Source: Spirochaetia bacterium
Lineage (GTDB): Bacteria > Spirochaetota > Spirochaetia > SZUA-6 > Bin103
Length of the DNA stretch: 64,000 nt
Direction of reading: 5' to 3'
Assembly: GCA_965203905.1 (NCBI GenBank)
Contig: CBDBDQ010000005.1
Location: 5,856,001 to 5,920,000 of the forward strand
Below, piece by piece: positions 28,983 through 48,908 of this stretch (its first letter is position 1; the number at the start of each line of letters is the position of its first letter). The notes below the pieces were generated by a model. The model was given only the letters and a program-made list of their open reading frames with translations. It was not told where the DNA came from and ran no database searches. The translations under genes were made by a program, and so were the position numbers.

Positions 28983-30083
28983 TCACCCCACGTGGACTGA
29001 TGAAGGTGCCACGTCTCGGACTTTCTCGGCAACGATATAGAAATTGATCGAGAGCAGTTGCAGCCGGTCGACCTCGTACCAGGCCTCGCCGCCAGCATTC
29101 AGTCGGTCCAACATCATGGCCCAGTGGCGCGGCAGAATATGCCACTTCGAGAGTCGCGATATCCACCTGCCAAGTGCCTTGTAGTGGCGATTCAAGTACC
29201 CGTACAGTACCACGCTGTTGCTGTTGTCGTTGCTGCTGGCATCCAGGTCCTCCGCGTGGACGATCTCGAAACCCGAGTCCTGCAACCACTGCAAGTACTC
29301 GGTGGCGAGTGGTGAATACAGTATCGTCAACAGCGGTTTGGTCTTTACCACCAGCTCCCGGTGCGCCTGATTGTTTCGGTCATAGTGCGGGTTACGAACG
29401 CAACCCAGTATCACAAAACGCCCACCGACACTCAGGAGACGATTGACATGAGCGAAGTAGAGTGGCTTGTTGTGGGCGTAGTTCAGCGATTGAATCTGGT
29501 AGGCCGCAGAAAATTCTCTGTCTGAAAAAGAGTCGAATGTCTCTGCCAGGTTGAAATCACCGAGGAGGAAGCGATTGGGAGTCTTGCTGTTGCTGGCAAG
29601 ATCCTGCGCGATCTCGACCTGGACCGGATCGATGTTGATCCCACACACCGTACAGCCGGTCTGTTGGTACACGTTGATCGCCACGAGGCCCCGACCACAG
29701 CCCAGGTCCAATACTCTGCTGTCGGCGTTCAGGACCGGACGCAACGCCGCGATGACCTTGTCCTCAAGCAGTGCCTGGTTCTTCAACAACGATCCGTTCC
29801 GGTCCAGGAGCGGGGGCAAGTACATCTTGTCGACCTGTCCAAGAGCGCACAGGAAATTCAATACCCGATACAGGTCACGGAGACATTTCTGATAGAACTG
29901 TAGGTGTCCTGGGCCGAATTCCTCCCTCATTTCTTCCTCGGAAATGAAGTCATGCGAGAGCATGTCGTACGACCGTATGTAGTCGTATATGGCTTCTCTG
30001 GGCATACGAAGCAGTCGATAAATCGTCTGAATTACGGTGATTATTCTCTTCACGATGATGCGTCCTGGCGGGTCCGACTGCAT
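28983..30083 (-). CDS. Class I SAM-dependent methyltransferase, sterol-methyltransferase-like layout, low GC
   Basis: RVLDLGCGRG, GINIDPVQV, GDFN, LSVGGRF; about 50% GC in a spot-checked line versus about 70% in the flanks. Confidence 0.8.
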   Translation of the reverse strand: MQSDPPGRIIVKRIITVIQTIYRLLRMPREAIYDYIRSYDMLSHDFISEEEMREEFGPGHLQFYQKCLRDLYRVLNFLCALGQVDKMYLPPLLDRNGSLLKNQALLEDKVIAALRPVLNADSRVLDLGCGRGLVAINVYQQTGCTVCGINIDPVQVEIAQDLASNSKTPNRFLLGDFNLAETFDSFSDREFSAAYQIQSLNYAHNKPLYFAHVNRLLSVGGRFVILGCVRNPHYDRNNQAHRELVVKTKPLLTILYSPLATEYLQWLQDSGFEIVHAEDLDASSNDNSNSVVLYGYLNRHYKALGRWISRLSKWHILPRHWAMMLDRLNAGGEAWYEVDRLQLLSINFYIVAEKVRDVAPSSVHVG

Positions 30084-32458: not shown

Positions 32459-33448
32459 ATGCGATACCTGGTTCTGGGCGCCGGCGCGATCGGAGGGACG
32501 CTCGGCGGCCATCTGTATCGCGCCGGGCGCGAGGTGGTGCTGATCTCACGTCCCGCCCACGTGGCGGCGATTCGGGCCGGAGGTCTGCGCCTGGTCACCG
32601 GCGACGGCGACTACCGGATCGACGTGCCGGCGGTCGACTCGGTGGCCGCGGCAACGCCGTTCAGCGGCGAGGACGTGGTGCTGCTCACCTGCAAGGCACA
32701 GCACACGGTTGCGGCCCTGGGCGAGCTGCGCGCGGCGGGGGCGTCGCCCACCCTCCCCATCGTCTGCTGTCAGAACGCCATCTGGAACGAGTCCCACGCG
32801 CAACGGGTGTTTTCCAGCGTCTACGGCGCCGTGGTGTTCGTCCCGGGGTTCTTTCTCGACCCCGGCGAGGTGATCAACGCGCGCGTCGGCCACTACGGCT
32901 ACCTCGAGGTGGGCCGCTACCCCGCGGGTACCGACGCGCTCTGCGCCACCCTGGTGGAGGACCTCGCAGCCGCCGGCTTCGCCGCCGCAGTGAACGGGGC
33001 CGTGATGCGCGCCAAGGGCGCCAAGTGCCTGGGCAACCTGGCCAACGCCGTCGCCGCCATCACCGGCAGCCAGCGCGGCGCCGAAGCCTTCATGGCGCGC
33101 GCCCGCGACGAGGCGCGTCGGGTGTGGCGGGCCGCCGGCATCGACTTCGAGGAGAGCGAGGAGTTCGACGTCCGCCGCAAGGAGCGCTATCTCGGGAGCG
33201 ACCGCTGGCCCCGGGACCACGGCCCGCCGCGCCAGGGCGGATCGTCGTGGCAGAGCCTGCTGCGCGGCGCCGGCAGCATCGAGAGCGAGTTCCTCAACGG
33301 CGAGGTGGTGCGGCTCGGGCGCCTGCTCGGCATTCCCGCGCCCTGCAACGAGGTGCTGTGGCGGCGAGCGGAAGAGATGGCCCGCGACGGCAGCTCACCG
33401 GGCCGCTACTCCATCGCCGAGCTCACCCGCCAAGCCGAATCAGGTTGA
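32459..33448 (+). CDS. Ketopantoate reductase-family protein
   Basis: LGAGAIGG, CCQNA, KCLGN, SSWQSL, ESEFLNGEVV. Confidence 0.85.
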   Translation: MRYLVLGAGAIGGTLGGHLYRAGREVVLISRPAHVAAIRAGGLRLVTGDGDYRIDVPAVDSVAAATPFSGEDVVLLTCKAQHTVAALGELRAAGASPTLPIVCCQNAIWNESHAQRVFSSVYGAVVFVPGFFLDPGEVINARVGHYGYLEVGRYPAGTDALCATLVEDLAAAGFAAAVNGAVMRAKGAKCLGNLANAVAAITGSQRGAEAFMARARDEARRVWRAAGIDFEESEEFDVRRKERYLGSDRWPRDHGPPRQGGSSWQSLLRGAGSIESEFLNGEVVRLGRLLGIPAPCNEVLWRRAEEMARDGSSPGRYSIAELTRQAESG

Positions 33449-33456
33449 TGCTTCGG

Positions 33457-33837
33457 TCAGGGGTCGTCAACGCGGAACTGCCATCCGCGGGCTACTGCAC
33501 AGTCTCTGAGTGACGACGACTTGCGCTTGATCTGATTCGTACCGAACTTGCTGAAATCGATGAGTATGTGCTCCAGAAAGGTCTGTGGATCAGGGAGGAC
33601 GGGAAGGTCTTGGGCGCTACATTCGAGCACGGTAACGGCAAGCACTCCGAGCGGCGGATTCTGGTCCTCGCGGGTGTAGTGAGAGCAAGCGTCCTGTGGA
33701 GTGATCTGGTCTCCGTCGTATACCGAGAGTTGCTTGTTATCGCTTGGTCTGGGACGGAAGGCCTGGGAAGATACTGTCCCCGACTGCACCCACATCGTGG
33801 CACTGATGACGCGGTGGAGCAGCGTCTCCTCGTTCAC
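33457..33837 (-). CDS. Hypothetical 126-aa protein, possible ADP-ribosyltransferase-fold toxin
   Basis: LLHR...SSQAFRP...LSV...EHILIDF pattern; GTGA overlap with the upstream gene; low GC. The fold call is inference. Confidence 0.55.
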   Translation of the reverse strand: MNEETLLHRVISATMWVQSGTVSSQAFRPRPSDNKQLSVYDGDQITPQDACSHYTREDQNPPLGVLAVTVLECSAQDLPVLPDPQTFLEHILIDFSKFGTNQIKRKSSSLRDCAVARGWQFRVDDP

Positions 33838-34958
33838 TTAGCGAGCTCGGCCAACTGACTGATCTTGTCGACAAGCCACGACCATCCCTGGTTCGCATCA
33901 AGACTCAGGGAGCGTGTTTCCTCCTGCGAGTAGCCCCTTTCGTACGATAGCCACTCAGCCTGCCGCGTGGCGAGGTCGATTTCGAGGGTGACTGATTGGA
34001 CCCCTATCGACCACTCCATTTCGATTCCTCCCGTGGGCGTGGGAAACGTATGGGGTAGTGGAAGTTCATCTGGATAGTACTGATCAAAGCTCACTGCTAA
34101 CCAGTCCAGTTGATCATGTTGCGGGGCGACTCCGTCGCCGTCCAACCAGCCCGCCTTCATTCCGCGGAACTCTTCGAGCCGCGCCGGAACGTCGAGCGGA
34201 TCCAGCAGAGCAGTGTGTTCAACGGACTGAACGCGGACCAAGCGATCCTGCCGATCGTACCTGCCAAGCCCTTGTATCAGGACCTTGGTGGCGTCCCTGT
34301 AGCCGTTGAAAGCCTCCATAATCGCATCAAGATGCTGATCAGATACCACACCTGTGACCTTGCGTCCTCCGGCCATCTGCAATTCGAAGGTCATTCGGTC
34401 CTGATCAAGTTCCGGAATCAATCCACGAACCCGTATCTCAGCCGTCAGCTCTTTGATTCGTGATGACGCCAAGACCAGTCTTCGACGAGATTCTCGGGTG
34501 AGTCGTGTTACGCTCGTGCGTGACGGTGTAGTGAACTCGATCGACTCACCAGCGCGCAGACTTCGGCCAATTCTGTCAAAGTATCCCAGACACTTCTCGG
34601 GGAGATAGTCGACGACCGACTGGTTCTGTTCTGCCGCAGCAATGGCTCCAACAATCGCTTCGCGAGCGTGTTCAAAATAGCCTTGGAACGGAGGCGGTAT
34701 CTCAGGTAGCGTAGGAACAGCGGATTCCACACTGATCACTGGGATCGCGCTGCCGTCCTGAAGCCCGGTGAGTTTGAATGAAACGCTATCAGCGAGCCCC
34801 TTTGGCGAGCGAGTACGGCCAGGGTTATGCTTCAGGAAACACCACTTGGCGACTTCAATCGCCATCTCTCCGAGACCGGCAAGATCACCAAGAACATCTA
34901 GCGGGATGGCGCCCCCTTCGAAACGACGCCCCCGTAGACGCGGCCGTAAGAACTCCAT
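33834..34958 (-). CDS. Hypothetical 374-aa multi-domain protein (partner of the putative toxin)
   Basis: Long low-GC ORF; central beta-rich OB-like segment; C-terminal RLEE..GWLDGDG.AP...PTPTGGIEMEW domain. Confidence 0.7.
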   Translation of the reverse strand: MEFLRPRLRGRRFEGGAIPLDVLGDLAGLGEMAIEVAKWCFLKHNPGRTRSPKGLADSVSFKLTGLQDGSAIPVISVESAVPTLPEIPPPFQGYFEHAREAIVGAIAAAEQNQSVVDYLPEKCLGYFDRIGRSLRAGESIEFTTPSRTSVTRLTRESRRRLVLASSRIKELTAEIRVRGLIPELDQDRMTFELQMAGGRKVTGVVSDQHLDAIMEAFNGYRDATKVLIQGLGRYDRQDRLVRVQSVEHTALLDPLDVPARLEEFRGMKAGWLDGDGVAPQHDQLDWLAVSFDQYYPDELPLPHTFPTPTGGIEMEWSIGVQSVTLEIDLATRQAEWLSYERGYSQEETRSLSLDANQGWSWLVDKISQLAELAK

Positions 34959-35048
34959 GCCTGGCACTTCGTCCCCCGTTCTACTCCTATTGTACCGTAA
35001 TCAACGCACGTAGAGCAGTTTCACGATACATCAGCGGGCTGATCCGAT

Positions 35049-35084
35049 GTTGCGAGGCCGTTCCACGCGGAACGGCCTCGCAAC
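35049..35084 (-). terminator. Perfect 16-bp stem hairpin after the ABC operon
   Basis: GTTGCGAGGCCGTTCC-acgc-GGAACGGCCTCGCAAC, 25 nt past the SBP stop; no U tract. Confidence 0.7.
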
Positions 35085-35109: not shown

Positions 35110-36750
35110 CTACTGCAGCGCGGCTGCGGCGTCCATCGCCGCCTGGAAGGTGTCCACGTACTCCTGGACGCCCAGGGCATCCAGGCCGGCAACGTAGCCA
35201 TCCCAATCGTTGTCCAGATCCTTCTGGCCGGTGATGAATGCGGCCATGTTCTGGCGCACGTAGGTCTGCACCTCGGCCTGGATCTGGGCGATCCGCTGTG
35301 CGACGTCCTCCGGGAAGTAGAGACCGCCCGAAGTGCCGCGGCCGATCGGCACGCGCATGTCCGGCGCCGGCACGTGCGGGATGTACTTGTCGCTCTCCAG
35401 GACCAGGAACCGCTCATAACCCTCGACCTTGGTGATGTCCTGATCGGCCACCCAGCCGTTGAACAGGTCGAAGTGCCAGAAGATCAGCTCCATCATCCAG
35501 GCGTCCTGGCGCGGCGTGTCGCCCCAGGCATGGGGGGCACCCCACACGATGCCCGGCTGGCCGTTCAGGCCGAGCTCGCCCTCCCGGGCATAGCGCCAGT
35601 TGACGACGCCCTCGGAGTTCTCCTGGATGCCCCAGATCTCCATGATCGTGCCTTCCTCGGTATACGCCCAGTTGGCCATCTCCATCGCCTTGCGTGCCTG
35701 GGCGTCGTTCGCCTTGTCGGTGATGGCGAACTTGCCCCGGTCAACGCCGGACGGCCAGTAGGCGGTCTGCCGCAGACCGGTGGGACCCATCAGCGGCGGT
35801 ACCGCCCGGTACTGCGGCCACAGGTCGTCGTTGCGCGGGAGCATGCGGTTGTGGCCCGCGGTGTAGGAACCCACCACGTAGGGCTCGGTGTTGGTCACCG
35901 CGCGCGCGGCATCGAGGTTCTGGGTGAACGCCTGCGGGTCGATCAGACCCTGCGCGTACAGGCCGCGCATGTAGCGCAGGCCGTCACGCCACTCCGGCTT
36001 GTTGGCGTTGAAGTCCACTTCCTTGTTGTGGTTCATGTACAGGTAGCTGGAACCGTCGTTGTAGATGAACGGGTTCATCGGGTAGTCGTAGACGTCCGCG
36101 GACCAGGTGCCGGTGGCGCCGGTCAACGGAATCTCGTCCGCCTCGCCGTTGCCGTTCGGGTCCTGATCCTTGAATGCCAGCAGCACCGCCTCCAGGTCTT
36201 CGGTGGTGTCCGGCATCTGCAGCCCCAGCGTGTCCAGCCAGGTGGTGTTCATCCACAGCTTCTGCCGCACCGAGCAGTGGTAGCACTCCTCGAAGTGGGG
36301 CAGCGTATAGATGTTGCCGTCCGGGGTGGTGATCTCGGGCCGGAAGTACGGTTTGAACTCGAATGCCGCCAGAATGTCCGGGGCCTGGGCGATCAGGTCG
36401 TTCAACGGTTGCAGGACGCCCTGGCCGCCGTAGCGCATCTGGTCGGCGTTGGTGAAGTGGCCCGACCAGAAGATCTCCGGATAGTCACCGGATGCCAACA
36501 GCAGGCTCTGCTTCTGCTGCGCCTCCTGGCTCGGCACCGCCACCCATTCGATCTTCACGCCGAATTTCTCTTCCATCCAGGCGGTGTACTCGTTCTCCGG
36601 CGAATCCAGGGTAATGATGCGCGGATTCAGTCGGCCGAACATGGTGAGCGGGACCGCGTCGCCCGCGGCCGCTCCCTCGCCCTCGCCCGCGGCGAAGGCC
36701 AATGTGCCGGCCAACAGCAGTACGGCCAGCGTCAATAGAGTCTTTCTCAC
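35110..36750 (-). CDS. Sugar ABC extracellular solute-binding protein
   Basis: AAGGAGG RBS; signal peptide RKTLLTLAVLLLAGTLAFAAGEGE; LASGDYPE, DGNIYTLP, DPNGNG. Confidence 0.88.
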   Translation of the reverse strand: MRKTLLTLAVLLLAGTLAFAAGEGEGAAAGDAVPLTMFGRLNPRIITLDSPENEYTAWMEEKFGVKIEWVAVPSQEAQQKQSLLLASGDYPEIFWSGHFTNADQMRYGGQGVLQPLNDLIAQAPDILAAFEFKPYFRPEITTPDGNIYTLPHFEECYHCSVRQKLWMNTTWLDTLGLQMPDTTEDLEAVLLAFKDQDPNGNGEADEIPLTGATGTWSADVYDYPMNPFIYNDGSSYLYMNHNKEVDFNANKPEWRDGLRYMRGLYAQGLIDPQAFTQNLDAARAVTNTEPYVVGSYTAGHNRMLPRNDDLWPQYRAVPPLMGPTGLRQTAYWPSGVDRGKFAITDKANDAQARKAMEMANWAYTEEGTIMEIWGIQENSEGVVNWRYAREGELGLNGQPGIVWGAPHAWGDTPRQDAWMMELIFWHFDLFNGWVADQDITKVEGYERFLVLESDKYIPHVPAPDMRVPIGRGTSGGLYFPEDVAQRIAQIQAEVQTYVRQNMAAFITGQKDLDNDWDGYVAGLDALGVQEYVDTFQAAMDAAAALQ

Positions 36751-47508: not shown

Positions 47509-47553
47509 GGCGCAATTTTGCGCCAGTATTGGAAACCGCGCGGGAGGTGTCAA
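47509..47553 (-). promoter_or_regulatory. opp operon promoter with palindromic operator
   Basis: TTGACA(47553-47548)-N17-AATACT, followed immediately by the GGCGCAA-aa-TTGCGCC palindrome (47509-47524). Confidence 0.6.
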
Positions 47554-48908
47554 CTTCCCGCGGGCGGGTGCGGCGGGTGCGTGCGGCCGATCCCGATCGC
47601 TTCTTCAAGGAGAGAGCGCAAGCTGGCCACAGCGTAGAGCGGGACTGAAACTACAGGCCCGTCACGACGATAGCCACCGGAGTAGACGCGCAACGCCAAC
47701 GGCGGCCGATAACGCTCGACGAACGCCGCCAGGCTGCGTAGGCGGCCCACCTTGCCTGACTTGACCTCGACCGGGATCACGCGACCCGCGGCCGCCGTGA
47801 GGTAGTCGACCTCGGCGCTGCTGGAGCTTCTGTGCCGGTGCCAGTAGAACAGCTCCGGCCGTTCGTATGGGCTCCGATGCGCCAGCAGTTCCTGCCCCAC
47901 GAACTGCTCGGCAACCGCGCCGTCGTTGATGCGCATGGGATCGCCGTGCAGGAGCTGCTCGGTTGCCCCGCACAGGTTCTGCATCAGACCGACGTCGACC
48001 ATGACGAGCTTGTAGTGGCGGTCGTCCGCCTCCGCGCCCAGGGGCAGTCCGGCTCCCGAAGTCGAGCAGACGCGGTGCACGATCCCCGCCCGCTGCAACA
48101 GCTCCACCGCCGCGCGCAGATCGCGTGAGCGGCTGTCCGGGTCGACCTTCGAATACATGAACTTGCGCCCGACCAGGCGCGCCGCGTGCAGGAACACCCG
48201 GTCCAGGTGATGGTGGCTGGAGGCCCGTGCGTACTTGCCGAAGTCGTCACGAAGGGTCTGGGTGATGGCGGTCTGAAGCCGGCTGGCGCGAGCCACGCTG
48301 CCGCTCTCCAGGTACTCCGCGACCACGGCCGGCATGCCGCCGAGCAGCAGGTAGGTCCGCAGCAAAGACACCAAGTGCTCGTGGACGGCGCTGGTCGGGG
48401 TGACGGTGCCCACTCTGGACGCCCGCAACGCGGGCTCCTCGCCAACCGCCGTCAAGAACTCCGCGAACGACAGCGGAAACATGAACAGGGGTTGGATGCG
48501 GCCCACCGGAATGCGCAACCGCTCCGCCTCCAGGGCGAATTCGAGGAGCGATCCCGCACCGATCACGTGCAGGTCGGGTACCTGCTCGTAGAAGTAGCGC
48601 AACGCCATGACGGCGGCCGGGCACTCCTGGATCTCGTCGATGAACAGCAGCGTGCGACCGGGATCGACCCGCGTTCCTCGGAGAATCCCGATCTGGTCGA
48701 GAATCGCGCGCGGTTCCAGAGTGTCGAAGCAGCGCCGGTAGCGAGGCTGCTGCTCCAGGTTGATCGAGGCGACATCGGAGAAGCTCCGTTCGCCCAGCGC
48801 CGTAACCGCGTAGGTCTTGCCGACCTGGCGGGCGCCGCGGATCAGCAGGGGCAGCCGGCGGCTGTCCCGCGCCCAGGCGTCCAGCACGTCGTCCACCAGT
48901 CTCTTCAC
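47550..48908 (-). CDS. AAA_14 ATPase with DUF4143/PD-(D/E)XK C-terminus
   Basis: GARQVGKT, LFIDEIQ, GGMPAVV, DVGL, EVD...PVEVK. Confidence 0.9.
   Translation of the reverse strand: MKRLVDDVLDAWARDSRRLPLLIRGARQVGKTYAVTALGERSFSDVASINLEQQPRYRRCFDTLEPRAILDQIGILRGTRVDPGRTLLFIDEIQECPAAVMALRYFYEQVPDLHVIGAGSLLEFALEAERLRIPVGRIQPLFMFPLSFAEFLTAVGEEPALRASRVGTVTPTSAVHEHLVSLLRTYLLLGGMPAVVAEYLESGSVARASRLQTAITQTLRDDFGKYARASSHHHLDRVFLHAARLVGRKFMYSKVDPDSRSRDLRAAVELLQRAGIVHRVCSTSGAGLPLGAEADDRHYKLVMVDVGLMQNLCGATEQLLHGDPMRINDGAVAEQFVGQELLAHRSPYERPELFYWHRHRSSSSAEVDYLTAAAGRVIPVEVKSGKVGRLRSLAAFVERYRPPLALRVYSGGYRRDGPVVSVPLYAVASLRSLLEEAIGIGRTHPPHPPAGS

What the first reader, a model, noticed from the sequence alone, without database searches (positions are those of the whole stretch)
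33457..34958. Low-GC two-gene module: putative ART-fold toxin with a multi-domain partner and no chaperone
Seen: two GTGA-coupled hypothetical genes (about 57% GC in a spot-checked line) wedged between a ketopantoate reductase-like gene and the ABC operon hairpin, with a TACAAT -10 at 34989-34994. The 126-aa protein has an early-strand Arg (LLHR), SSQAF.P, LSV and a late EH, a spacing reminiscent of the R-S-x arrangement of ADP-ribosyltransferase folds. Established: ART toxins that modify nucleic acids act in phage defence (DarT; CmdT of CmdTAC, which uses a SecB-like chaperone). Inference: here a 374-aa protein (unknown N-domain, OB-like middle, GW.G...P.P.GG..EW C-domain) could serve as sensor and antitoxin, which would be an undescribed arrangement.
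Basis: inference. Interest (0 to 1): 0.75.

Follow-up and report, generated by a model that had tools for sequence, protein, structure and literature searches.

The report
Catalogued, untested two-gene phage-defence candidate
This low-GC gene pair is a copy of a widespread two-gene cassette already listed as an untested phage-defence candidate (PDC-M32); its two proteins are predicted to bind each other, but what the small one does chemically is still unknown.

Summary
The two overlapping minus-strand genes are real. B is 33457-33837 (126 aa). Their GC is 54-59%, against 64-74% in the flanks.

They are not an undescribed arrangement. They match PADLOC-DB models PDC-M32A (E 3.7e-136) and PDC-M32B (E 2.8e-42). 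PDC-M32 is one of 145 untested "phage defence candidates" predicted by embedding in known defence systems.

In 80 related loci from many phyla:
- B follows A on the same strand in 77.
- The pair sits inside a type I restriction-modification operon (hsdM-[A-B]-hsdS-hsdR) in 18.

A has a central OB-fold domain. Its C-terminal domain is predicted to bind B (ipSAE 0.85, best control 0.00).

The ART-fold idea has only weak support. The best Foldseek hits are ART-fold proteins (KptA/Tpt1, AvrPphF, ParT), but none is significant (E >= 0.6, TM 0.32-0.43). No profile search finds any ART family.

Best reading: a horizontally acquired sensor/scaffold (A) plus small effector (B) of abortive-infection type, with B's chemistry unresolved. 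It is a new member of a known but uncharacterised kind.

The parts
33834..34967 (-). Gene A (PDC-M32A), 377 aa from GTG 34967; stop TGA at 33836-33834
   Evidence: ORF list. PADLOC PDC-M32A E 3.7e-136, profile 5-373 of 376. phrog_30544 E 7e-88. Homologues align from the GTG. AF2 pLDDT 90.3, pTM 0.75.
34563..34967 (-). A, N-terminal domain (aa 1-135), Arg-rich and conserved (P9, G13, R15, F16, P22, L23, R51, P55, G72, S73, F130, G134)
   Evidence: Invariant columns in 58 sequences. Secondary structure. The first ~75 aa weakly match PDC-M63B (E 0.025) and phrog_6603 (E 1.2e-4). No PDB fold match was identified for this domain.
34203..34550 (-). A, middle region (aa 140-255) holding an OB-type beta-barrel (about aa 172-256: b1-b2-b3-helix-b4-b5)
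   Evidence: Foldseek: 4gop_A RPA prob 1.00, 8bbz SilF prob 1.00, 3i4o_A IF1 prob 0.97. Strand/helix order E174-188, E193-197, E203-207, H210-221, E228-237, E243-255. Placing the hits on this stretch is my inference from the topology.
33837..34199 (-). A, C-terminal domain (aa 257-377): helix, five-stranded sheet, helix. Conserved D259, G273, W274, G279, W289, P305, P309, E318, W319, W362. Predicted B-binding surface.
   Evidence: Invariant columns. Predicted contacts at A 257-258, 263, 266-267, 270, 274-278, 306-312, 316, 318, 325, 327, 340-351.
33457..33837 (-). Gene B (PDC-M32B), 126 aa, GTG start at 33837; small alpha/beta protein, presumed effector
   Evidence: PADLOC PDC-M32B E 2.8e-42. 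phrog_31579 E 3.3e-31. AF2 pLDDT 90.3, pTM 0.85. Conserved R9, F27, P29, S38, G64, E72, H90, L110, R117, G118, W119.
33834..33837 (-). GTGA overlap of the A stop and the B start (translational coupling)
   Evidence: Read directly from the sequence.
34972..34977 (-). GGGGGA, Shine-Dalgarno-like, 4 nt upstream of the GTG start of A
   Evidence: Read directly from the sequence; function is inferred.
34989..34994 (-).
   Evidence: Present, but no two-hexamer promoter passes the scan (0 found).
35049..35084 (.). Perfect hairpin (16-nt arms, 4-nt loop) between the end of the ABC solute-binding gene (35110) and the pair. Likely terminator of the upstream operon, which would make the pair its own transcription unit.
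   Evidence: Inverted repeat I3, 100% complementary. The terminator role is inferred; the T-tract scan did not list it.

Best explanation
The locus is a horizontally acquired, intact copy of PDC-M32. This is a two-gene cassette that spreads among many bacterial phyla and often sits inside type I restriction-modification operons.

Shown:
- Family membership.
- Conserved A-then-B gene order with start/stop overlap.
- Association with defence loci.

Predicted:
- A and B form a stable heterodimer.
- A's C-terminal sheet/helix domain grips B's conserved S24-Q25-x-F27-x-P29 loop and B's C-terminal helix.

Inferred:
- A is the sensor/scaffold. Its OB fold and arginine-rich N-domain read a nucleic-acid cue, or hold a nucleic-acid substrate.
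- B is the catalytic effector, with conserved R9, S38, E72, H90 and R117 left uncontacted in the model.
- Phage infection switches the complex on, and it damages a nucleic acid or depletes a cofactor. This aborts infection, in the manner of other cassettes embedded in restriction operons.

B's chemistry is unresolved. NAD+-dependent transfer by a minimal ART-like fold is the leading guess. A metal-independent RNase is the main alternative.
For: Membership: PADLOC PDC-M32A E 3.7e-136 and PDC-M32B E 2.8e-42.

Pairing: B lies directly downstream of A on the same strand in 77 of 80 related loci. One of the other 3 holds a degraded B remnant.

Spread: record titles of the 80 loci include Latescibacterota, Spirochaetia, Planctomycetota, Chloroflexota, Desulfobacterota, Gemmatimonadota, Verrucomicrobiota, Negativicutes, Bacteroidota and Gammaproteobacteria. 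GC is 54-59% against 64-74% in most flanking windows.

Defence context:
- hsdM upstream with hsdS and hsdR downstream, all on the pair's strand, in 18 of 80 loci. At least one type I RM gene in 24 of 80.
- Type III RM beside the pair in L001, L004 and L014.
- CBASS cyclase plus phospholipase in L001.
- TIR proteins in L058 and L011, AbiU in L068, GmrSD/HEC-06 in L041, PDC-S14 in L076, PDC-S15 in L053.

Complex: ipSAE 0.85 (three runs 0.84, 0.85, 0.85) against a best control of 0.00. That mark was reached by 116 of 157 solved complexes and 2 of 215 mismatched pairs. The runs agree in at least 94% of contacts, and partner pLDDT is at least 89. The counts hold only roughly because my own alignments were used.

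Interface: it coincides with the invariant columns of A's C-domain (P305, P309, E318, W319) and with B's S24/Q25, beside its F27/P29.

OB fold in A.

Effector-like conservation in B: R9 128/130, S38 127/130, H90 128/130, E72 115/130 plus 10 D, R117 117/130.
Against: - No member of PDC-M32 has been tested. The only paper in the library that names it lists it in a prophage (PMC12429752, passages). A study that tested eight PADLOC candidates did not include it (PMC12881386, passages).
- In this window the pair is not in a defence island. The neighbours scanned by Pfam, long ORFs from about 17 kb on one side to 14 kb on the other, are transporters and metabolic enzymes. The only other PADLOC candidate hit is PDC-S01, 12.6 kb away.
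- The embedding result is not independent of how PDC-M32 was defined.
- A is split into two ORFs in L074 and L080 while B looks intact. This does not fit a B that is lethal without A, unless these are assembly errors.
- B has no significant structural or sequence relative of known function, so its role as effector rests on size, conservation pattern and analogy.
Confidence: 0.55

Rival explanations
1. B is a true ART-fold, NAD+-using toxin (an R-S-E-like triad R9/S38/E72, or H90 at the usual E position) that ADP-ribosylates nucleic acid or protein. A is both its antitoxin and the phage sensor.
For: - Four ART-fold proteins are among the Foldseek PDB hits, and two carry the lowest rmsd in the list: 1wfx KptA (rank 1, E 0.64, prob 0.41, rmsd 3.8 over 99 columns) and 7kw8 Tpt1 (prob 0.51, TMq 0.43, rmsd 3.8 over 93 columns). 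The others are 1s21 AvrPphF ORF2 and 6d0i_C ParT.
- R9 lies in strand 1 and S38 in strand 2 of the model, as in R-S-E enzymes (the R-S-E layout itself is recalled knowledge).
- An ADP-ribosylglycohydrolase gene (PF03747, E 6.5e-57) lies directly downstream of the pair in L063.
- A is predicted to bind B.
Against: - No Foldseek hit reaches E <= 0.001, and all TM-scores are below 0.5.
- BFVD gives no named match.
- No Pfam family recurs among the 130 members scanned; each match is in one member only. NCBIfam gives none for the window's B.
- The PDB sequence profile search gives 0 hits at E <= 10.
- hhalign against E. coli KptA gives probability 0.48%.
- E72 follows strand 3 rather than opening strand 5, and the residue at that place is His.
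- The glycohydrolase neighbour occurs in 1 of 80 loci only.
- No macrodomain or other reversing enzyme is part of the cassette.
- The predicted interface does not cover R9, S38, E72 or H90.
Confidence: 0.25
2. B is a metal-independent endoribonuclease or other nuclease, with His/Glu acid-base catalysis and Arg stabilising the transition state. A's OB fold delivers it to RNA or ssDNA. The cassette would then work like the anticodon nuclease PrrC, which sits in a type I RM operon and fires when phage disables restriction.
For: - The conserved polar set R9, E72, H90, R117 is the kind of residue set used by barnase/RNase T1-type and RelE-type toxins (recalled knowledge).
- A has an OB fold.
- The pair nests between hsdM and hsdS/hsdR in 18 of 80 loci, the position PrrC occupies (recalled; the Payne preprint names PrrC as almost exclusively embedded in type I RM).
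Against: - No RNase or nuclease fold appears among the listed Foldseek hits.
- There is no sequence-family match.
- In this window, and in most related loci, no type I RM is adjacent, so guarding an RM complex cannot be the general mode.
Confidence: 0.15
3. The cassette is not an immune system. It would be a selfish addiction (toxin-antitoxin) module, or an accessory of mobile DNA that merely rides in variable regions such as restriction operons and prophages.
For: - Patchy spread across phyla and a low-GC insertion here between housekeeping genes, with no defence neighbours.
- PHROG families exist for both proteins.
- Integrases, transposases or a prophage-type repressor lie near some copies: L018, L056, L066, L074, L026, L079.
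- Three of the four plasmids holding distant relatives are typed as mobilizable.
Against: - Only 4 of 72,556 plasmids and 0 of 50,697 phage records hold a relative at E <= 1e-5.
- No mobility gene lies among the long ORFs scanned around the pair in the window.
- The precise, repeated nesting inside type I RM operons and beside other defence genes is typical of immune cassettes.
Confidence: 0.15
4. The roles are reversed. The 377-aa protein A is the effector, acting for example by sequestering nucleic acid through its OB fold. B is a small regulator or immunity partner.
For: - A is the larger and more conserved protein: mean column identity 63% against 53% for B in comparable samples.
- A persists without B in L045 and L054, and with a degraded B in L001.
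Against: - A shows no catalytic-domain match.
- B carries a compact set of nearly invariant polar residues that lie outside the predicted interface, which is typical of an enzyme.
- Loss of B with retention of A is also what is expected if B is the costly part.
Confidence: 0.1

Closest known systems
PDC-M32 (PADLOC-DB v2.0.0 phage defence candidate, multi-gene no. 32; Payne et al., bioRxiv 10.1101/2024.01.29.577857)
   Same: Both proteins match its models over their full length. The genes are adjacent, on the same strand and overlapping. Relatives are nested in type I RM operons, which is how the candidates were found.
   Different: This copy stands alone among housekeeping genes. The family itself has no tested function and no described mechanism. 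The preprint's supplementary tables, which may hold its annotation, could not be opened.
DarTG and CmdTAC (ART-toxin defence/TA systems)
   Same: A small presumed effector is paired with a protein partner. The context is defence-associated. There is a weak structural hint of an ART-like fold in B.
   Different: There is no macrodomain (DarG) and no SecB-like chaperone (CmdC). Neither protein matches any PADLOC model other than PDC-M32, apart from a marginal match of A to PDC-M63B. B is 126 aa, which is smaller than DarT or CmdT as I recall them. The partner is a 377-aa three-domain OB-fold protein.
PrrC-type cassettes embedded in type I restriction-modification operons
   Same: The position is the same, between hsdM and hsdS/hsdR, in 18 of 80 related loci. 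An abortive-infection logic is plausible.
   Different: The pair has no ABC-ATPase or anticodon-nuclease domain. It has two proteins instead of one. Most copies, including this one, have no adjacent RM system.
Tpt1/KptA RNA 2'-phosphotransferase (minimal ART-fold NAD+ lobe)
   Same: It is the best Foldseek match for B: 1wfx at rank 1, and 7kw8 with prob 0.51 and rmsd 3.8 over 93 columns.
   Different: E is 0.64-0.86 and TM is below 0.5. hhalign probability is 0.48%. B lacks the second lobe. The Tpt1 catalytic Arg-His-Arg-Arg tetrad (recalled) was not matched.

Membership tests
PDC-M32 (PADLOC candidate system) | A protein that matches a PDC-M32A model | tested here: met
   E 3.7e-136, residues 4-374 on profile 5-373 of 376.
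PDC-M32 (PADLOC candidate system) | A protein that matches a PDC-M32B model | tested here: met
   E 2.8e-42, residues 1-122 on profile 1-121 of 123.
PDC-M32 (PADLOC candidate system) | The two genes adjacent on one strand | tested here: met
   GTGA overlap at 33834-33837. The same order holds in 77 of 80 related loci.
PDC-M32 (PADLOC candidate system) | Embedding in BREX, DISARM or type I RM (the basis of discovery; not required of every copy) | tested here: not met
   The window neighbours scanned are transporters and metabolic enzymes. It is met in 18 of 80 related loci for type I RM.
PDC-M32 (PADLOC candidate system) | Anti-phage activity | not testable with these tools
   No test is in print in the library searched: 'PDC-M32' is found in one paper, as a listing only. 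It was not among the eight candidates tested in PMC12881386.
ADP-ribosyltransferase (ART) superfamily | ART fold recognisable against solved ART structures | tested here: inconclusive
   KptA, Tpt1, AvrPphF ORF2 and ParT are among the listed hits, but with E 0.64-1.9 and TMq 0.32-0.43. There are 0 hits at E <= 0.001.
ADP-ribosyltransferase (ART) superfamily | Sequence-profile match to an ART family (RES, DarT, Tpt1, toxin ARTs) | tested here: not met
   Pfam finds no family for the window protein, and no family recurs among the 130 members scanned. NCBIfam finds none. The PDB profile search finds 0. hhalign against KptA gives 0.48%; that test used a single KptA sequence, so its sensitivity is low.
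ADP-ribosyltransferase (ART) superfamily | Catalytic triad on strands 1, 2 and 5 (H-Y-E or R-S-E; layout recalled) | tested here: inconclusive
   R9 is in strand 1 and S38 in strand 2, both above 97% conserved. The third position, at the start of the 90-94 strand, is His (128/130). E72 follows strand 3. No coordinates were available to check spatial clustering.
ADP-ribosyltransferase (ART) superfamily | NAD+ binding and ADP-ribose transfer | not testable with these tools
   This needs biochemistry.
Type II toxin-antitoxin module | Direct protein-protein binding of the two products | tested here: met
   Prediction only: ipSAE 0.85 against a best control of 0.00; mark reached by 116 of 157 solved complexes and 2 of 215 mismatched pairs.
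Type II toxin-antitoxin module | Toxicity of one product, neutralised by the other | not testable with these tools
   Indirect only. B is lost or degraded with A kept in 3 of 80 loci. A is split with B intact in 2 of 80.
DarTG | Macrodomain antitoxin (DarG) beside a DarT-family toxin | tested here: not met
   Neither protein has a Pfam or PADLOC match to DarT or DarG.
CmdTAC | Three genes including a SecB-like chaperone | tested here: not met
   Only two genes lie between the ApbA-like gene and the ABC operon hairpin. PADLOC shows no CmdTAC match.

The most novel reading that the evidence does not exclude
B founds a new class of very small effector enzyme. It would be either a stripped-down ART-like fold with an R-S-H/E active site or a fold with no solved relative. 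It works only when docked on an OB-fold sensor, and it modifies phage or host nucleic acid on infection. The family has 1361 cluster representatives and repeatedly nests between hsdM and hsdS. It would then be a widespread, mechanistically new abortive-infection system that backs up type I restriction when phages disable it.
Probability: 0.2. Interest if true: 0.8.

Novelty: new member of a known kind. Interest (0 to 1): 0.45.

Why it matters
PDC-M32 is common and crosses many phyla. B alone has 1361 representatives at 50% identity, and 296 relatives of A were confirmed in species-representative genomes. Despite this it has no tested function, no Pfam family and no solved relative.

This work adds three things to the catalogue entry:
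- a confident predicted A-B complex with a defined interface;
- a domain map of A, with an OB fold in the middle and a B-binding C-domain;
- a short list of candidate catalytic residues in B (R9, S38, E72, H90, R117).

These make the system directly testable. If B proves to be a minimal ART-like enzyme or a new fold, that would extend the range of defence effectors. If the cassette guards type I restriction, it would add a second example beside PrrC. For this particular window the finding is ordinary: one more solo copy of a listed candidate.

Tried and rejected
- Pfam and NCBIfam on both proteins gave nothing at E <= 1. Pfam on 130 diverse B members gave 35 families, each in one member only, which I take as chance.
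- The PDB sequence profile search gave 0 hits for B. For A it gave only a marginal Vps4 MIT match (E 0.45), which I take as chance.
- Foldseek of B against BFVD gave a best hit that is an unnamed 149-aa protein (E 0.063, prob 0.96, TMq 0.48) and nothing informative.
- Foldseek of A against PDB gave weak Polo-box matches (E 3e-3 and up, rmsd 15-17 A). I read these as two sheet-plus-helix modules aligned separately, not as homology.
- The ESM Atlas search for B returned only its own unnamed clusters. The nearest named family was DUF6098, at 0.92 with 165 shared features, which is a lead only; Pfam did not confirm it. For A residues 1-137 it returned DUF6575 at 0.77, below any useful level.
- hhalign of the B profile against E. 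coli KptA gave probability 0.48%.
- The search for fused forms of B found one 327-aa protein carrying PF00496, probably a gene-calling artefact. The longer cluster representatives have unrelated, low-complexity-looking extensions. I take B to be a stand-alone protein.
- tblastn of A against phage records gave no match. Against plasmids it gave 4 distant matches at 24-30% identity.
- The promoter scan found no two-hexamer site.
- A 16-nt imperfect direct repeat flanks the pair. I considered it as an insertion scar and set it aside as possibly chance.
- Literature searches for a characterised equivalent found none.

Not checked:
- The supplements of the Payne preprint were closed.
Full report
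**What is there.**
Two ORFs lie on the minus strand between a ketopantoate-reductase-like gene (32459-33448, +; ApbA and ApbA_C) and the solute-binding gene of an ABC transporter operon that ends at 35110.
- A is 33834-34967.
- B is 33457-33837.

The stop of A and the start of B share GTGA at 33834-33837. GC in 400-nt windows is 0.54-0.59 across the pair and 0.64-0.74 in most flanking windows. The pair therefore looks horizontally acquired.

A perfect hairpin (16-nt arms, 35049-35084) separates the pair from the upstream operon. It has no matching -35, and the two-hexamer scan found nothing.

Homologues of A align from the GTG at 34967 (consensus MxxxEFLRPRL), and GGGGGA lies 4 nt upstream of it.

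**Identity.**
Pfam and NCBIfam give nothing for either protein. PADLOC-DB v2.0.0 gives full-length matches: A to PDC-M32A (E 3.7e-136) and B to PDC-M32B (E 2.8e-42).

I read passages of Payne et al. (bioRxiv 10.1101/2024.01.29.577857). [quoted passage not shown] They were found because homologues are embedded in BREX, DISARM or type I RM systems, and the authors call them untested.

The term "PDC-M32" occurs in one paper of the library, PMC12429752 (passages read). That paper only lists it in a Sinorhizobium prophage. A study that tested eight PADLOC candidates did not include it (PMC12881386, passages).

PHROGs holds both proteins as families of unknown function: phrog_30544 and phrog_31579.

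The arrangement is therefore catalogued, not undescribed. Its function and mechanism are unknown.

**Distribution and pairing.**
- B has 97 relatives in the 90%-clustered set and 1361 cluster representatives at E <= 0.001 in the 1.84-billion-protein library.
- A has at least 430 relatives.
- In species-representative genomes, 296 stretches encode a relative of A, and 80 loci were kept.
- Their record titles include Latescibacterota, Spirochaetia, Planctomycetota, Chloroflexota, Desulfobacterota, Gemmatimonadota, Acidobacteriota-type Holophagales, Verrucomicrobiota, Negativicutes, Bacteroidota, Nitrospirota/Nitrospinota, Armatimonadota-type Fimbriimonadaceae, and many Gammaproteobacteria.
- A profile of B finds a B gene directly downstream of A on the same strand in 77 of 80 loci.
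- Of the other three, L001 holds a frameshifted remnant and L045 and L054 hold none.
- A is split into two ORFs in L074 and L080 while B is intact. These could be real breaks or assembly errors.
- No fused form of B was found.

**Context of relatives.**
I took type I RM proteins identified by Pfam in the neighbourhoods as phmmer queries.
- 18 of 80 loci have hsdM upstream and both hsdS and hsdR downstream, all on the pair's strand.
- One more has a variant order, and five have partial sets, several of them cut by contig ends.
- In all, 24 of 80 loci have at least one type I RM gene at E < 1e-15.
- Among the 37 loci with at least 8 kb on both sides, 13 show the nesting.

Other neighbours:
- type III RM in L001, L004 and L014;
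- a CBASS cyclase with a phospholipase effector in L001;
- TIR proteins in L058 and L011;
- AbiU in L068;
- GmrSD/HEC-06 in L041;
- DndB in L024;
- PDC-S14 in L076 and PDC-S15 in L053.

Only 89 of 325 neighbouring ORFs of 250 aa or more were scanned by Pfam. These were the 23 cluster representatives and the 66 nearest singletons. The counts for these other systems are therefore lower bounds.

About a third of the well-flanked loci, like this window, show only housekeeping or mobile-element neighbours. The nesting reproduces the way the candidate was discovered, so it is not independent evidence.

**Structure of A.**
The AF2 model is confident (pLDDT 90.3, pTM 0.75). It has three parts:
- An N-terminal alpha/beta domain (aa 1-135) with many invariant residues, several of them arginines.
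- A middle beta-barrel whose strand/helix order (three strands, helix, two strands, aa 174-255) is that of an OB fold. Foldseek matches RPA, IF1 and SilF with probability 0.97-1.00.
- A C-terminal helix, five-strand sheet and helix (aa 257-377) carrying the invariant D259, G273, W274, P305, P309, E318, W319.

No PDB relative was found for the first and last domains. The weak Polo-box matches have rmsd of 15-17 A, and I do not read them as homology.

**Structure of B.**
The model is confident (pLDDT 90.3, pTM 0.85). It is a small alpha/beta protein with five to six strands and a long C-terminal helix.

In 130 diverse members the most conserved residues are F27 (130/130), R9 (128), H90 (128), S38 (127), G64, L110, A114, R117, G118 and W119, plus E72 (115 E and 10 D).

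Foldseek against the PDB finds nothing at E <= 0.001. However:
- rank 1 is KptA (1wfx, E 0.64);
- the hit with the highest probability is Tpt1 (7kw8, prob 0.51, TMq 0.43, rmsd 3.8 over 93 columns);
- AvrPphF ORF2 and ParT also appear.

All four have ART-type folds. This recurrence is a hint, not a demonstration.

Against it:
- The PDB sequence profile search is empty.
- hhalign against E. coli KptA gives 0.48%.
- No Pfam family recurs over 130 members.
- BFVD gives no named match.
- R9 and S38 sit on strands 1 and 2 as in R-S-E enzymes (layout recalled). The third position is His90, while E72 follows strand 3.
- An ADP-ribosylglycohydrolase gene directly follows the pair in L063, but in that locus only (1 of 80).

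**The complex.**
With both alignments, the complex prediction gave ipSAE 0.85 (0.84, 0.85 and 0.85 in three runs) against 0.00 for all three controls. That mark was reached by 116 of 157 solved complexes and 2 of 215 mismatched pairs. The runs share at least 94% of contacts, and the partner's pLDDT is at least 89. The counts hold only roughly with my own alignments.

The interface joins A's C-domain (257-351, including the invariant P-x-x-x-P-T and E-W motifs) to B residues 12-32, 56, 59 and 101-109. This region includes S24 and Q25 of the conserved S24-Q25-x-F27-x-P29 loop, and the C-terminal helix. No like complex is known to me, so memory of a solved structure is unlikely to explain the score.

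R9, S38, E72, H90 and R117 of B are not among the contacts. The model therefore looks more like a scaffold holding an exposed enzyme than a plug in an active site. Residues that are not listed are uncertain rather than free.

**Most likely mechanism.**
- *Shown:* membership of PDC-M32, conserved coupling, and association with defence loci.
- *Predicted:* a stable A-B heterodimer through A's C-domain.
- *Inferred:* A reads or holds nucleic acid through its OB fold and Arg-rich N-domain. B is the catalytic effector. Infection turns the complex on a nucleic-acid or cofactor target, and the infected cell stops supporting the phage.

For copies nested in type I RM operons, a PrrC-like back-up role is plausible. 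For solo copies such as this one it cannot apply.

I give this overall reading 0.55. Within it, an ART-like NAD+-using B stands at about 0.25 and a metal-independent nuclease at about 0.15. A non-immune addiction module (0.15) and reversed roles (0.10) remain open.

**Novelty and verdict.**
The module, the OB-like domain, the partner binding and the defence link hold. "Undescribed" does not hold, and "ART fold" remains a weak lead.

The locus is a new member of a known but uncharacterised kind. As a genome feature it is ordinary. As a family it is a good candidate for experiment, because the complex, the interface and the candidate catalytic residues are now defined.

Noticed in passing
window 47550-48908 (-): A 452-aa AAA_14 + DUF4143 ATPase matches PADLOC candidate PDC-S01 (E 6.2e-134). 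It lies 12.6 kb from the pair, so the window holds two listed candidates. In PMC12881386 (passages), PDC-S01 was tested and was not among the four candidates that protected.
   Followed up: partly
window 28983-30083 (-): A second low-GC island (0.54-0.56 against about 0.70). It encodes a 366-aa class I SAM-dependent methyltransferase (Methyltransf_23/31/25/11, CMAS-like). It has only a generic PADLOC mad2 match and no link to the pair was seen.
   Followed up: partly
window 33467-33482 and 35062-35077: A 16-nt imperfect direct repeat (14 of 16) brackets the pair. One copy lies in the 3' end of B and the other in the upstream hairpin. It could be an insertion scar or chance.
   Followed up: no
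L063 11012-12157 (+): An ADP-ribosylglycohydrolase gene (PF03747, E 6.5e-57) lies directly downstream of the A-B pair on the same strand in a Schlesneria MAG. It is the only such case in 80 loci.
   Followed up: yes
L001 11104-11376; L045; L054; L074; L080: Decay patterns. B is a frameshifted remnant in L001 and is absent in L045 and L054 while A is kept. A is split into two ORFs in L074 and L080 while B is intact.
   Followed up: partly
window 34743-34967 (A residues 4-79): The first ~75 residues of A weakly match another PADLOC candidate protein, PDC-M63B (E 0.025 and 0.057), and phrog_6603 (E 1.2e-4). This hints at an N-terminal module shared between candidate systems.
   Followed up: no
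L076 12766-13770; L053 12856-13779; L058 11726-12649; L011 11883-12815: In several type I RM operons a further embedded gene lies between the A-B pair and hsdS/hsdR: PDC-S14, PDC-S15 (FRG domain), or a TIR-domain protein. These operons carry stacked cassettes.
   Followed up: partly
window 33649-33810 (B residues 10, 12, 13, 62): The window's B and its closest relatives differ from the family consensus at four well-conserved positions: V10 (Q in 112/130), S12 (H in 85/130), A13 (P in 107/130) and P62 (S in 112/130). This marks a divergent subclade.
   Followed up: no
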